In this document: positions 4,317-10,618 of the stretch, piece by piece
Numbering within the stretch: position 1 is the first letter of the stretch
Layout of the letters: each line of letters starts with the position of its first letter
Source: Azolla caroliniana
Lineage: Eukaryota > Plantae > Polypodiophyta
Assembly (NCBI GenBank): GCA_043228905.1
Contig: JBHGNT010000011.1
Coordinates: 17,050,001 to 17,114,000 of the forward strand
DNA length: 64,000 bases
Direction: 5' to 3'
Notes under the pieces: model-generated
Databases searched by the model: none
Told to the model about the DNA's origin: nothing
What the model saw: the letters and a program-made list of their open reading frames with translations, nothing else
Position numbers and translations under genes: made by a program

Positions 4317-4492
4317 CATACATACATACATACATACATACGTACATACATACATACATACATACATACATACATACGTACATACATACATACATACATA
4401 CATACGTACATACATACATACATACATACATACATACATACATACATACATACATACATACATACATACACACATACATACACACATACACA
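4317..4492. repeat. (CATA)n microsatellite, continued at 5437-5486
   Basis: Direct reading. The tract is split by the TIR element at 4493-5436. Confidence 0.97.
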
Positions 4493-5436
4493 CCGTGGTG
4501 TCTAACTACTACCAAATATTAAAGAGGCCAAGTGAGGGAATCGCGGAGAGGGACGGTGCAGGTCGCACCGCTGATGGCGCGTTCGATCTCCACCGTCAAA
4601 GATGGATGTGGAATAGGCGCGAAAAAGCGCGCCACGTAAAAAGGGAGCCCGGCTCATACAAAATGGAGCCCGACTCATTAAAGAAGGGCTCCACTTTGTG
4701 AAAGGGAGCCCTTCTCATTCATGTTCAGGGAAGTATAAAAACCCATTCAGGCAAAATGGAGCCCGACTCATTAAAGAATGGCTCCATTTTGTCAAAAGGG
4801 AGCCCTTCTCATTCATGTTCAAGGAAGTATAAAAACCCATTTTCTGTCATTTTCTGTCATTTTCTGTCATTCGTGGGTTTGAGGGTTTAGGGTTTTTGAG
4901 CGAGGCGCACCACCTGTCTGCGAGCACTCGTTGCAAACATCTCCGGTGAGGCACTGCGAGCACCTGCAGTCCAGAGGTAGGCATCATATTCCTTCTATTA
5001 GGTTTTGGTTTTTATTAGGTATCATATTCTTTCTATTAGGTTTAGGGTTGCTTCTAATAGGTACCATAAATGTGTGTATGATTAAATACATGCATGTGTG
5101 TATGAGGGCTCCCTTTCGCAGAGTCGGGCTCCTTTTGACAGAGTCGGGCTCCTTCTTACTGATGTGGTCTAACAGCGGGGCTCCTTCTGACAGAGTTGGG
5201 CTCCCTCTTGTAGAGGCTGTCTGACAACGGGGCTCCTTTTGACAGAGTCGGGCTCCCTTTCGTAGAGTCGGGCTCCTTTTCACAGAGTCGGGCTCCTTGT
5301 GACAGACGTTGTCAGCTTTTTATCCATCTTGGACGGTGGAGATCGAACGCGCCAACAACGGTGCGACCTGCACCGTCCCTCTCCGCGATTCCCTCACTCG
5401 CCCTCTTTAATATTTGGTAGCAGTTAGTCACGAGCC
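4493..5436. mobile_element. Non-autonomous DNA transposon (MITE, Mutator- or foldback-like) with ~110-bp TIRs and subterminal repeats
   Basis: 4498-4607 (gtgtctaactactaccaaatattaaagagg...caccgtcaaagatggat) is the near-perfect reverse complement of 5322-5431. GGAGCCCGACTC motifs on the left face GAGTCGGGCTCC motifs at ~20-bp spacing on the right. An internal ~90-bp tandem duplication spans 4659-4841. No transposase ORF. Confidence 0.88.
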
Positions 5437-8023
5437 ATACACACACACATACATACATACATACATACATACATACATACATACACAGTTACACTACCAC
5501 AGTCTACTACTATCACATTTTTAGAGGGGTGAGAGAGAGTCTGTGACTGCGTGACAGAGCAGACAGAGTGAGAGCGAGAAAGAAATGGCCAGTTTGCGAT
5601 CGTAAGAGCTGCTCACAGAGAAGACAAGAGGAAACATGATCGGCTCTACCCTTCTACGTCGGCTTCAGATTCATCCTTTGCGTAAGTACAGAGCGAACCC
5701 CTAACGTCTGTGTGCTTCTTCGAATGGTTTTCGAAATGTCCTATCCTCGATAATAGAGATTGCATCCAGCATGTAATGGAATGTTCGTCACCAAGATGTT
5801 GATCACAACATGGAATTGTTATTTGCATTGATCTACGTGTATTTAGGGCTTTTCAATTTGATCTATGTGAAACGAATGTTTTTAAAATCAATATCTGTAG
5901 ATCTAAAGTATGATTTTTAAATTCATCCATGTAAAACGACAGTTTTTAAATGTTTGAGTAGACTCAAAATTCAACAATGAACATGAAGTTAAATACTGAT
6001 CAGTGTGACCGTCTGATGTTATATGAATTGATTAATGTAAAAATAAGAGTTTTTTAATTTCATAAACCTTCAATATTCAACAATAAAGAAGAAGTTAAGC
6101 ATGAATGTGGCGTTTCTAAACCTATGCTCTTAATATAATAGGACCTACATTTTATATTTTGATTGATTGTGTAAGACAGTGTAACTTGGGTGTTTTAACT
6201 GTCAGATATCATCAATGTTCAACATCAGAGATGGAATTAAGAACGAAAATTTCTCTACCCAATGTTCACGTATGATTTTTTATAGTTATATGCACTGATA
6301 TCTTTTTTATTTCAAATTACCTGAGCAAGCACGATGCATTGATGTGGCAAATGCAAGGTCATTCATGCTTCAGGAGAGACAAAATAGAAAGTTTTTTTAA
6401 GACTGATTGATTTAATGAGATAAATCTGCAATGCAAGGTGATTCATGCTTCAGGAATATCTCCATAAGATTTCATAAACAACTTAGATATGCAGATAATA
6501 ATTGTTGTATCAGTATGAAATCACAAGGACACGAAAAAGTGTTTCAGTCTCCATTCATATTGGAAAAGAATGCACCATTTCATTATTACAAAAGATGAAC
6601 CTCAAAAGGACAGTGGCGTTACCTGGTACATCGTTGGATCTGACACCCCCATATTTCCTAGAAACTTAAGTTTATTAATTCTTTACATATACACTAGAGG
6701 GATGTTTATTTCATTTATCAAGAATAAGAGGACAGATCTCAAGAATCAAAAGCATGACTGCATCATCTCAGCATATTATTTGATCTCAAATCTACGTAGT
6801 TCATGAAAAAAGTATTAGTTAAATGCAACATTTGTTGATAGACATTTATCTCAAAGGGGAGACTCCATTAGCATGTAATTTGATCTCACACCCCCATAGT
6901 TTTTAGAAACTTAAGCTTGGATATTTTTGGTTTAATTACAAGGTCAACATAACTTCACTGTTCAGCAGATAGATAGATCTGTATAATGTCGTTGAAGGCC
7001 AAATATGGCCACTTAGACCCAAAAGAGCTTGCAACAACATGCCTCGATGTGGGTACAAGAGGTTTCTCCTCTTCTGTGAGGATGAGTTGGTAGGAAAATT
7101 AGAAGATGTGTCATGACCCAGAGTAGTGGTAGTGTCTAGAGGGGTGGCTGACATTGGTTTTCTGAAAAACCCATAAATGATTGATCCACAGACGGCCTAT
7201 TGGTGCACACTATTCTCATCTTCCAGGGTACATATAATTTTGTGATGGAATAAGCTCTTTTGTGATCCAAACCTTTGTGAAATATTGTGCTATTTTCTCT
7301 TAACTTTACAGATGATGTGACCACTAAGAATATGCTTTTCTGATTGAGTGTGGATTGATGCACCTCGTTTTGTTGTATTAAGTTCTGTGTGAAATAGCTT
7401 TATTGAGGAAGACAAGGGCTTCATAGAAGTTGTCAATCTGCACAGTTGAGGCCTTGATGCCATGACTTTTTTGAGATTCCATTAGACTTACACCAAGCTG
7501 GTCTTGCGAAGTCAGGACTGTGAATCGTGATATTCTTTTATAGGGCTCCTACTTCTTCTTCTTCATGCTCTCTCTGTCCTTGCTATTACTGATGCCTTTG
7601 GAGATTACTTGCACAAAGATGTGAGAGCATTGCCTAGTAATACTTCATTTAATGATAACTATTACTTTAGTTTGGGTTATTTCATTCTGGTTGGAATGAA
7701 AATGGGGACAAAACTCTGGAATGGATAACTTATTTTCAAGTTCATGCATACATCGATCCAATTTTGCGTACATGTCAAAATGTGTTCAAGAAGACCAGCA
7801 CTAAAGTTTAATCTTAATCTTGACCAGTGGAATAAAGGCTATTCGTTCATTTCCAGGGAATAAACACATGCAAGCATTTCAACACCTGAAGGGGTCAGAT
7901 AGAGGTGTTCTTAGAAATAATCTAATTGATGGGAACATAAGGTTTCATCAGTGAATATACTTCTTTATTTTCTGAATTGATTTATATACCTGCCATAGTA
8001 AATTAATGTTCATTTTGTGACAG

Positions 8024-9850
8024 TGAACGGCATTTCCATTCTGGGAAATCTGGAATGATTGGCACAACAGTATTGTGTGTTCGTAAAGGACCAACAGTGA
8101 TCATTATAGCAGATGGACAAGTAACTCTTGGATCGGAAATTGTAAAGCCAAATGTGAGGAAAGTAAGGAGAATTGGGGAGGATGTTATCGGTGGATTTGC
8201 AGGTTAAACAGACTCCTTTTTGTAATCGAATTTTTCTATAAACATTATCTTCATCTTGGTATTTGTTGGAACCACTGTAGGAGCCACGGCAGATGCGTTT
8301 ACGCTGTTTGAGAGGCTGGAAAGCCAACTTGAGGAGCATTCAGGTTTAGCATGCATGCAACAGAGTATTTAATATGGGCTCAATGTGATTGAACAACTTC
8401 TTTCCTTTGGGCATTCATGTTTCATGTGGGGATAACACCGATGGAAATATATGTATATGGGCAAATTCCAATTTTAATTTACCTTACTTTCCTAAAACTG
8501 GCCCAACTTTCCCCTCACACCACAAAAGAGAGAAGAAAGGGATGCATTGACCATGTAATTGAGAAAAAGGGATTGGATGATAAATATGATTGCTCAACAG
8601 GGCTTGCTGAAGGCATATTTGAGCAAGTAATGAAACTTAGGAGCATTTGAGGAAATAAAGAAAGGCATATTTGGGAGTTTTTCATTTTATATATAAACAC
8701 AAACCCAGACACACATATATTGTATTGATGTAAGTAAAAATAAAAAATTAGATAGTATGCTCATAACAAATTTTTTCGTTTTCTTGCATAATAACAGGGC
8801 AGGTATTTCTGTCAGAGAGCTTCCAAGATCTGCATGGTCTTTCCTGTTGACTGTTGTTTATTTGTACATTCCACCACACTTATTTTCTTATGATCATGTG
8901 CATGAGAGAAATCTGTTCTTTTTCATCTCTAGCTTACTCGTGCGGCTGTGGAGCTAGCTAAACAATGGAGAACGGACAAGTTTCTACGGCGGCTAGATGT
9001 AAGCACTGTCACTAGAGTTTTCTTCAAGGTTTGGGTTGTGGAAAGTGGTTCGTAAAGGTCATGTTATAGGAGAAACTGTTTGATCATGATCTCAAATTTT
9101 GTACTTTGTCTGACCTTCTTTGTACCTTCAATAGGCTGTAATGGTTGTCGCAGACGCAGAGATTTCACTCACTATAACAGGAAATGGTGATGTTTTAGAA
9201 CCACACGACGGTCTTGTTGGTGAGGAACTTTTATATATAAAAGTCATAAGGAAGCACCAATCTGAGAATTATGTGGCCAATATGAATGCACTATAATCTT
9301 GTATCTTATGTAGCAAAGTAGATATACTTCTCTCTCAAAACTAAAAGTTTCCTTTCAAGTGCTATCTAAAACTTAGTTTTGGGCTTCAGCAATTGGGTCA
9401 GGTGGACCTTATGCCATTGCCGCGGCAAGAGCATTGATAGACATCCCGAACATGGATGCAGAAACAATTGGTGAGCTAAAGATTGTGCTGTGAGGAATAG
9501 CGTTTCTTGTACAATTAATATAAACTTGTATTTTTATTTTTTAAGGAAGTCTGTATTGTACAGTTTGAGTATTTCAAAAAAGAAAAAGCTTATTGTTAGT
9601 ATTGTACATAATATATCTTAAACCAAAATTTGGGACTTGGGCAGCTCTAAAAGCCATGAAGATTGCAGCTGATAGCTGCATCTATACCAACCATAACTTC
9701 ACAATGGAGAAAATTGAAGCCTCAACCTGTCCAATCTCACAGGCGGATGATCAGTCTCACAAAACAGATAGTCATTCACAAAATTCACAGGATGACTCTG
9801 TTTCAAGTAGTAGCTCAACTGACAATAGGAGTGAAAAGAATAAGTCTTAA
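8024..9850 (+). CDS. hslV: ATP-dependent protease subunit HslV (ClpQ), probably organelle-targeted; 5' exon(s) unresolved (candidate ATGs at 5585 and 5636)
   Basis: GT-AG exons 8024-8202, 8281-8343, 8798-8802, 8933-8998, 9135-9219, 9390-9470 and 9645-9850 join in frame: [111 protein letters not shown]...TGNGDVLEP...[16 protein letters not shown]...[15 protein letters not shown]. Thr1 (8064), Asp17, Lys33 and GSGG are intact. Confidence 0.93.
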
Positions 9851-10618
9851 GATTTTGCGCTAAATTTTCCATTGTAGCTTCTGGCTTCATTGTCATGTAG
9901 AATTAATGAGAATGCAATTACAGTGGTACACATCCTCAGCAACTAATTTGCATTTCATCAATCCAAGGTTGTAGATTGGTATATTATACTATCAAGCAAT
10001 GTCGTTTCAATTCTATCTAATGAAGCTCTAGGGAGACATCCTTTTAATGAGAAGAATTTGGGCTCACTTTTTTGTAGGTTTTCGGTTTTAATTATTAGGT
10101 ATGTGAAAACTGAAATGTGCTACCCCAGATTTAGGGAGTAGAAATGGTAGTAACTAAAGCAATTGAATCATGTTAACAATTTCTGATGTTGTAGTACTAC
10201 ACTCTCTTCTCTAAGCTTATTCCTGTATATATGGGAGATGTTATGCAAGGTGATTTTGTCCAGTTAACTGTCAGAAGTCTAATTTAAAAAATGACAAACT
10301 TTTTAAACCTTAAAGCTGTCATTGTCATTGTAGTTCTTTTGTATATCTTTCTTTATATAAAAATATACTCCATCTTGCACTTTAATGGTAATTTGCAATA
10401 TGATACATTAATAAGTGGCTTATTTATTGTAACTTGTTTCTTTTAAAAGTAGTTGGAATTGCGAATTAGTTACTTCATCCATGTAAGCAAGTGAAACTTG
10501 ATCAATTATATATATGATGTTTTGCAGAATTGCCCAATGTGTTGATTAATTACTTGTTTGCATCAACTTCACATCACCCCTATGAAAGCCCAATGATAAA
10601 GCTATGTGCAATCACATC

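What the first reader, a model, noticed from the sequence alone, without database searches (positions are those of the whole stretch)
8798..8802. A 5-nt micro-exon (GGCAG) is required to keep HslV in frame
Seen: exon 8281-8343 ends ...CAT TCA G (phase 1) and exon 8933 starts CTT ACT CGT (phase 0). Direct joining frameshifts to a TAA within 10 codons. Between them lies a T-rich tract followed by ataacAG|GGCAG|GTattt. Inclusion gives [14 protein letters not shown], restoring the conserved Hsl[12 protein letters not shown] motif exactly. Inference: this is a non-triplet micro-exon whose skipping would act as an NMD switch, and it would cause gene predictors to mis-annotate this gene.
Basis: partly seen in the sequence, partly recalled or inferred. 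Interest (0 to 1): 0.8.

Follow-up and report, generated by a model that had tools for sequence, protein, structure and literature searches.

The report
Conserved five-base exon in fern protease
A fern's gene for the bacterial-type protease HslV contains a real exon only five bases long that spliced transcripts keep and peat moss shares; it trips up gene-prediction software, but it is likely an ordinary always-included plant micro-exon rather than an on/off switch.

Summary
The five bases at 8798-8802 are a real exon of a nine-exon nuclear hslV gene of a fern (best hit Adiantum). Of 8 public runs laid, 6 gave spliced contigs. All 6 use the micro-exon's acceptor, 4 carry the fully spliced form with the five bases, and 0 show skipping. 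The same AG|GGCAG|GT lies in two Sphagnum-like loci and one fern locus. The mis-annotation claim holds: 4 of 12 land-plant species have a public model lacking these residues. The NMD switch by skipping is unsupported. The off-pathway form actually seen keeps the 130-nt downstream intron (4 of 6 runs), which carries an early stop. Most microexons in Yu et al. 2022 detain the upstream intron instead. This exon is not among that paper's 45 clusters, but 5-nt plant microexons are a known kind. Verdict: new member of a known kind; modest interest.

The parts
5511..5681 (+). exon 1 (5' leader and start of the N-terminal extension; ATG at 5636)
   Evidence: Loose ends before 7857 map to 5652-5681, followed by GTAAGT. 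The 5' edge is inferred from the 171 extra letters of the X2 contig.
7857..7941 (+). exon 2 (N-terminal extension)
   Evidence: contig pieces and joint
8024..8202 (+). exon 3 (mature N-terminus: T1, T2, D17, K33)
8281..8343 (+). exon 4, ends in phase 1
8344..8797 (+). intron 4 (454 nt, upstream of the micro-exon)
   Evidence: joint 8343->8798 GT..AG in X1, X15, X4
8760..8785 (+). branch-point-like CTCAT (8760-8764) and U-rich tract (8771-8785) ahead of the micro-exon acceptor
   Evidence: Sequence and (14 of 26 T at -30..-5, the highest of the 8 introns by a margin of 1). Function inferred.
8798..8802 (+). exon 5, the 5-nt micro-exon (phase 1 in, phase 0 out): last two bases of Gly68 and the codon of Gln69 of the mature protein
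8803..8932 (+). intron 5 (130 nt), often retained; in-frame TGA at 8848-8850
8933..8998 (+). exon 6, starts in phase 0; the TAA of the skipped frame lies at 8959-8961
9135..9219 (+). exon 7
9390..9470 (+). exon 8
9645..10061 (+). exon 9 (stop at 9848-9850, then 3' UTR; 3' edge approximate)

Best explanation
The five bases at 8798-8802 are a real coding micro-exon of a fern hslV gene, present in spliced transcripts and shared with peat moss, and likely included constitutively rather than skipped as a switch. Shown: exon 4 ends one base into a Gly codon, the micro-exon completes Gly and adds Gln, and exon 6 resumes in phase 0, giving a 271-residue HslV. Shown: the upstream 454-nt intron can be removed while the downstream 130-nt intron is still present. 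Inferred: the two introns are removed one after the other, the upstream one first, helped by the branch point and U tract. This fuses the five bases to exon 4 so that the micro-exon's donor acts as the end of an ordinary 68-nt exon, and removal of the 130-nt intron is the slow step. Inferred: molecules that still hold that intron are unfinished nuclear intermediates or, if exported, NMD targets (stop 148 nt before the next junction). Inferred: the exon exists because two old introns five bases apart, each seen alone in other eukaryotes, are both kept in seed-free land plants, and the exon is held by the reading frame. Inferred: the product is imported into mitochondria.
For:: joint 8344->8931 with two letters between, which spells exon 4 + the five bases + exon 6, in X1, X2 and X3. 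In X2 one 1,101-nt contig runs through exons 2-9 with no other letters; the same joint in X4. Joint 8343->8798 (GT..AG) running on into intron 5 in X1, X15 and X4, plus a 188-nt contig over 8795-8960 with an exon-4 loose end in X5. No direct 8343->8933 joint is listed in any run. In X1 and X4, introns 3 and 6 have zero depth while both flanking introns are covered; identical AG|GGCAG|GT in L008 and L010 (introns 125/186 nt; Sphagnum-like, 245/262 and 236/252 identities) and in L011 (fern, 492/130 nt); spacing across this stretch is fixed at 30 residues in 160 of the 172 proteins with both anchor motifs (223 held), from bacteria to plants. PMC8831610 (sections 6, 7, 9, 19 read): about half of plant 1-15-nt microexons are non-triplet, most coding ones have PSI >0.5, and flanking introns are removed consecutively and often detained.
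Against: All runs are assembled contigs whose RNA status is a guess; they drop rare variants and their depth is not an expression measure. NMD would hide a skipped isoform, so 'constitutive' is an inference from 0 of 6. X15 and X5 list no fully spliced contig across the micro-exon (both tables were cut, and a filter drops records). X5 also covers the start of intron 7 (depth 7.35) and most of intron 4 (10.7), so retention is not confined to intron 5 in every run. The upstream-first order is the minority pattern in PMC8831610 (4 of 69 upstream-only; 32 of 49 mixed cases favour downstream-first). L008 and L010 are 94.8% identical, so the moss evidence is one lineage. Mitochondrial import was not tested.
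Confidence: 0.8

Rival explanations
1. Regulated intron detention: the micro-exon is always included, but removal of the 130-nt downstream intron is controlled (for example by heat or development) and sets how much HslV mRNA matures.
For: The intron-5-retained, intron-4-spliced form is seen in 4 of 6 runs, from 4 studies and 3 organism labels. Contig depths are 13.7 against 8.24 fully spliced in X1 and 16.2 against 41.2 in X4. It carries an early stop 148 nt before the next junction. X2 and X3 show only the fully spliced form, so the level may vary.
Against: Contig depths are not isoform levels and no conditions are known. Intron 5 is no more conserved than the gene's other short introns against the fern relative L011 (93.1% versus 91.9-95.8%). 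Detention next to microexons is common without known regulation (PMC8831610 section 7).
Confidence: 0.13
The micro-exon's own end (CAG|GT) could serve as a recursive site for this.
For: The skipped product would qualify for NMD (stop 122 and 203 nt before later junctions). NMD and contig assembly would both hide it.
Against: 0 of 6 runs with spliced contigs list a direct 8343->8933 joint or an 8343->8803 joint. The micro-exon's donor has the best match to CAG|GTAAGT of the gene's 8 donors (7 of 9). Every transcript-derived fern, liverwort and moss protein that spans the site has G-Q-L, although a skipped RNA would not yield a full protein to be listed.
Confidence: 0.05
3. Not a real exon: the frame is restored by another cryptic exon or shifted splice sites, and the motif is chance.
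For: Four other short in-frame candidates without a stop exist in the gap, and the motif alone is expected 1.36 times in the window.
Against: Contigs of 4 runs spell exactly these five bases between exons 4 and 6, and 4 runs map the acceptor at 8798. The same site is kept in moss and fern loci.
Confidence: 0.01

Closest known systems
Conserved plant coding microexons of 1-15 nt (Yu et al. 2022, PMC8831610; MEPDB, PMC12409088), especially the 5-nt cluster 7 in Peptidase M1 genes
   Same: Internal coding exon of 5 nt, non-triplet, GT-AG flanks, U-rich upstream intron, retained flanking introns, missed by annotation with truncations, short deletions or wrong extension of a neighbouring exon, and conserved across land plants.
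   Different: Different gene. No Proteasome/HslV motif is among the 45 cluster motifs, and a cluster needed three of nine land plants, seven of them flowering plants (species table); no flowering-plant name appears among my HslV hits. The intermediate seen here keeps the downstream intron, whereas most cases there keep the upstream one.
Potato invertase 9-nt mini-exon (cited in PMC8831610 and PMC12409088; its dependence on a branch point and U tract is recalled, not read)
   Same: Tiny constitutive exon preceded by a branch-point-like motif and a U-rich tract, spliced in two steps.
   Different: Triplet length, so skipping keeps the frame; upstream intron detained according to PMC8831610.
Eukaryotic HslV (ClpQ) of the mitochondrial HslVU protease, e.g. 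TbHslV (PMC2277460)
   Same: Two N-terminal threonines after an extension, Lys33, and 67% identity to alphaproteobacterial-type HslV over 172-175 residues.
   Different: Fern protein with a 57-residue extension and a Ser-rich tail. Location, activity and the HslU partner were not tested here.

Membership tests
Plant internal coding microexon (1-15 nt, Yu et al. 2022) | internal exon of at most 15 nt with canonical GT/AG flanks | tested here: met
   5 nt, AG at 8796-8797, GT at 8803-8804
Plant internal coding microexon (1-15 nt, Yu et al. 2022) | transcript support across both junctions | tested here: met
   Contigs of 4 runs span both junctions. The paper's rule of 5 raw reads per junction could not be applied because only contigs were served.
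Plant internal coding microexon (1-15 nt, Yu et al. 2022) | same size and phase in several species | tested here: met
   L008, L010 (Sphagnum-like) and L011 (fern) at DNA level
One of the 45 MEP clusters | listed cluster with matching motif and size | tested here: not met
   The motif row of the source data has no Proteasome entry, and 'proteasome', 'HslV' and 'PF00227' are absent from the 6 readable supplements. Six clusters are 'Unknown' but are numbered 12 or higher, after the 6-nt cluster 11 (ordering by size is my inference). The main supplementary PDF and the 2,398-exon list could not be read.
NMD-coupled alternative (poison or frame-shift) exon | the alternative form creates a stop more than 50-55 nt before a later junction (rule recalled) | tested here: met
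   skip: 122 and 203 nt; intron-5 retention: 148-314 nt
NMD-coupled alternative (poison or frame-shift) exon | the skipped isoform exists | tested here: not met
   0 of 6 runs list it; contigs cannot prove absence
NMD-coupled alternative (poison or frame-shift) exon | isoform stabilised when NMD is blocked, and regulated by condition | not testable with these tools
   needs cycloheximide or upf1 RNA
HslV (ClpQ) peptidase | match to HslV models above cut-off | tested here: met
   The close fern relative P0003 scores 258 and 247 bits against cut-offs of 137 and 157.75. Window exon 3 alone hits the same models at E 1e-14 and 2e-13, below cut-off as a fragment. The window model is 73% identical to P0003 over 260 residues.
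HslV (ClpQ) peptidase | Thr1, Thr2 and Lys33 (PMC2277460) | tested here: met
HslV (ClpQ) peptidase | HslU partner, dodecamer, ATP-dependent activity, mitochondrial import | not tested
   No HslU search and no structure or localisation prediction was run. The extension is basic and Ser-rich (6 R, 3 K, 5 S, 3 acidic in 57 residues), which is only compatible with a presequence.

The most novel reading that the evidence does not exclude
Seed-free land plants may throttle their bacterial-type mitochondrial protease at a five-base exon: the upstream intron is removed first, and the stop-carrying downstream intron is held back in a regulated way, the reverse of the usual microexon order. The exon itself would have arisen where two older introns, each found alone in algae and protists, came to be kept together.
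Probability: 0.13. Interest if true: 0.55.

Novelty: new member of a known kind. Interest (0 to 1): 0.3.

Why it matters
It fixes a gene model that is broken in several public plant annotations. It also adds a microexon family that surveys weighted to flowering plants could hardly have clustered. A correct model matters because HslV of ferns, mosses and liverworts is little studied: one paper says plants encode neither HslUV subunit (PMC7050145, passage read), which the hits here contradict for seed-free plants. The frequent downstream-intron intermediate gives a simple test case for splicing order around very small exons. None of this changes a general principle.

Tried and rejected
No whole genome is held for this window, so paralogues and hslU were not searched. 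The run search listed no holder on record as RNA. Of 8 runs laid, X12 is probably DNA (no joints) and X14 gave nothing; both were left out of the 6. Other cryptic exons in the gap were rejected. Extra conservation of intron 5 as a sign of a regulatory element was not found. Of the 11 loci from the metagenome scan: L001 (moss-like) ends 161 nt into intron 4 and is uninformative. L004 overlaps L011 at 100% over 1,910 nt and then departs from it inside intron 4, so it was not counted. L009 is bacterial with no intron. L002, L003, L005, L006 and L007 have only the upstream intron. The pattern demanded an intron start after exon 4, so it cannot find genes without that intron. Literature: 'HslV' + 'microexon' gave 0 papers. 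'HslV' + 'land plants' + 'intron' gave 4, 'HslV' + 'Physcomitrella' + 'mitochondria' 1, and 'microexon' + 'plants' + 'misannotation' + 'proteasome' 2; none of these listings concerns this exon. Searches gave no plant HslV paper in their listings. The scan's earlier notes returned three unrelated bacterial windows. My first exon coordinates were off by one and were corrected.

Full report
Observation. Joining the two directly reaches TAA at the tenth codon (ends 8961). Including the five bases gives G-Q-L and an open frame to 9850, 271 residues from the ATG at 5636. Of 74 AG..GT-bounded candidates of 1-60 nt in the gap, six are at most 20 nt with the right length class, five of those are free of stops, and only this one gives G-Q-L. 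The motif alone is unremarkable in the window (1 found, 1.36 expected). In a gap this size it arose in 0.6-1.4% of 20,000 simulations.

The gene. Exon 3 is 96% identical over 49 residues to a protein of Adiantum nelumboides and 88% to one of Ceratopteris, so the window is fern DNA. The protein is HslV. The close relative P0003 passes the curated cut-offs of both HslV models and matches solved HslV chains at E about 1e-58. The window model has Thr1, Thr2, Asp17 and Lys33; Thr1, Thr2 and Lys33 are the residues that PMC2277460 (passages read) names as essential. The gene has nine exons; the micro-exon is the fifth and supplies the end of Gly68 and Gln69. The stretch around it has a fixed length, 30 residues between two anchor motifs, in 160 of 172 proteins that hold both motifs, out of 223 held. 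A 57-residue basic extension suggests mitochondrial import as in Trypanosoma; this is inference.

Transcript evidence. Eight public runs were laid, all as assembled contigs and none on record as RNA. Six show spliced joints at GT..AG; X12 looks like DNA and X14 gave nothing. X1, X2, X3 and X4 show a joint from 8344 to 8931 with two letters between. Because 8344 and 8931-8932 happen to match the first and the last two bases of the micro-exon, this spells exon 4, the five bases, exon 6. In X2 a single 1,101-nt contig carries exons 2-9 with no other letters. X1, X15 and X4 show a second joint, 8343 to 8798, that runs on into the 130-nt intron, and X5 shows the same form as a 188-nt contig with an exon-4 loose end. 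So all 6 runs use the micro-exon's acceptor, 4 of 6 show the finished form, 4 of 6 show the downstream intron still in place, and 0 of 6 show a direct skip. The reverse intermediate (downstream intron out, upstream intron kept) is not listed either. Contig depths were 8.24 finished, 13.7 downstream-kept and 7.1 upstream-kept in X1, and 41.2, 16.2 and 5 in X4. These are not expression levels. In X1 and X4 introns 3 and 6 have no depth, but X5 also covers the start of intron 7 and most of intron 4.

Conservation. A scan of metagenome contigs for the end of exon 4 followed by an intron start gave 11 loci. Three are land-plant loci that reach the site, and all three have AG|GGCAG|GT: L008 and L010 (Sphagnum-like; flanking introns 125 and 186 nt; 94.8% identical to each other) and L011 (a fern; 492 and 130 nt). 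Both moss loci have CTAAT-type branch motifs upstream. The exon is therefore shared by mosses and ferns. Five algal or protist-like loci (L002, L003, L005, L006, L007) have the upstream intron at the same phase-1 position but no second intron, though the pattern selected for that intron. Conversely, models of Klebsormidium (P0120) and Cymbomonas (P0069) carry an insertion beginning with Val right after the Gln, as expected from reading into an intron at the downstream position (inference from proteins). One algal genomic ORF (P0050) reads through both positions. The Mesotaenium model P0014 continues in the shifted frame from this point, which suggests but does not show that it has the micro-exon. 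The simplest history is two old introns five bases apart, kept together in land plants.

Mis-annotation. I held named models from 12 land-plant species. Four have at least one model that lacks the G-Q junction. A. nelumboides (P0002), Riccia sorocarpa (P0010) and Marchantia polymorpha (P0205) have the same six-residue deletion. Another M. polymorpha model (P0007) has K-T-S in place of Q, and Ginkgo Gb_05900 (P0006) stops three residues after the Pro. Two Physcomitrium models insert N-V-W; this fits a donor nine bases further on joined to the same micro-exon, so I did not count them as misses. One old Selaginella model lacks exon 4. Ceratopteris, R. fluitans, M. paleacea, Ceratodon, Diphasiastrum and Sphagnum models are intact.

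Mechanism. Shown: inclusion, the upstream-first intermediate, and conservation. Inferred: a branch-point-like CTCAT 35 nt upstream and a U tract drive removal of intron 4, which makes a 68-nt composite exon. Intron 5 then leaves more slowly, although its donor is the best match to consensus in the gene (7 of 9). Retaining intron 5 ends the frame at 8850, 148 nt before the next junction; skipping ends it 37, 122 and 203 nt before later junctions. Either form would be an NMD target by the recalled 50-55-nt rule. That makes the exon necessary, not a switch; a switch needs a regulated alternative form. None was seen for skipping. For retention, the form exists but regulation is untested, and intron 5 is no more conserved than its neighbours against L011 (93.1% versus 91.9-95.8%).

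What is known. Yu et al. 2022 (PMC8831610; sections 6, 7, 8, 9, 19, passages and supplement searches seen) found 2,398 microexons of 1-15 nt in ten plants. About half are non-triplet, most coding ones are included in the major isoform, many are mis-annotated in the ways seen here, and flanking introns are often detained. There the upstream intron is more often the detained one, so this gene shows the minority order. The 45 clusters include a 5-nt exon in Peptidase M1 genes but no Proteasome motif. PMC11096116 (passages read) describes gradual intron gain creating microexons on the way to land plants. A search for 'HslV' with 'microexon' found 0 papers.

Verdict. A real, conserved, probably unlisted micro-exon: a new member of a known kind. 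Interest 0.3. The boldest reading not excluded, regulated detention of intron 5, has probability about 0.13.

Noticed in passing
window 5636-9850: Ferns, lycophytes, mosses, liverworts and Ginkgo all have HslV hits, while no flowering-plant name appears among the listed hits (only the best 120 of 8,000 were listed). PMC7050145 states that plants encode neither HslUV subunit, whereas PMC2277460 lists Plantae among possible holders.
   Followed up: partly
window 5585-5605: A six-codon upstream ORF lies in the 5' leader, ending 30 nt before the hslV ATG.
   Followed up: no
window 4317-5485: The promoter region holds two CATA microsatellites (4317-4490, 5436-5485) and short tandem arrays. The units at 4639-4841 and 5106-5306 look like reverse complements of each other, suggesting the two ends of a small inserted element.
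   Followed up: no
window 7857-7941 and 9135-9219: Runs X1, X3 and X15 each hold two versions of exons 2 and 7, one identical to the window and one differing at 7 and 5 places. This points to a second copy (homeologue or paralogue) in those organisms.
   Followed up: no
window 8525-8561 and 8625-8682: Short stretches of intron 4 match many unrelated contigs with loose ends on both sides, so they are probably fragments of a dispersed repeat.
   Followed up: no
L002 and L005, first codon after the upstream intron: In these two protist-like loci the codon split by the upstream intron reads Asp rather than Gly, at the same intron position.
   Followed up: no
L004 versus L011: The two contigs are 100% identical over 1,910 nt, but L004 departs from L011 about 210 nt into intron 4, which suggests an insertion or a misassembly in L004.
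   Followed up: no
P0020, P0216 (Physcomitrium): Two independent annotations carry an N-V-W insertion before the Gln. It fits an alternative donor nine bases into intron 4 and may be a real minor isoform; the five transcript-derived members of the cluster that span the site lack it.
   Followed up: partly
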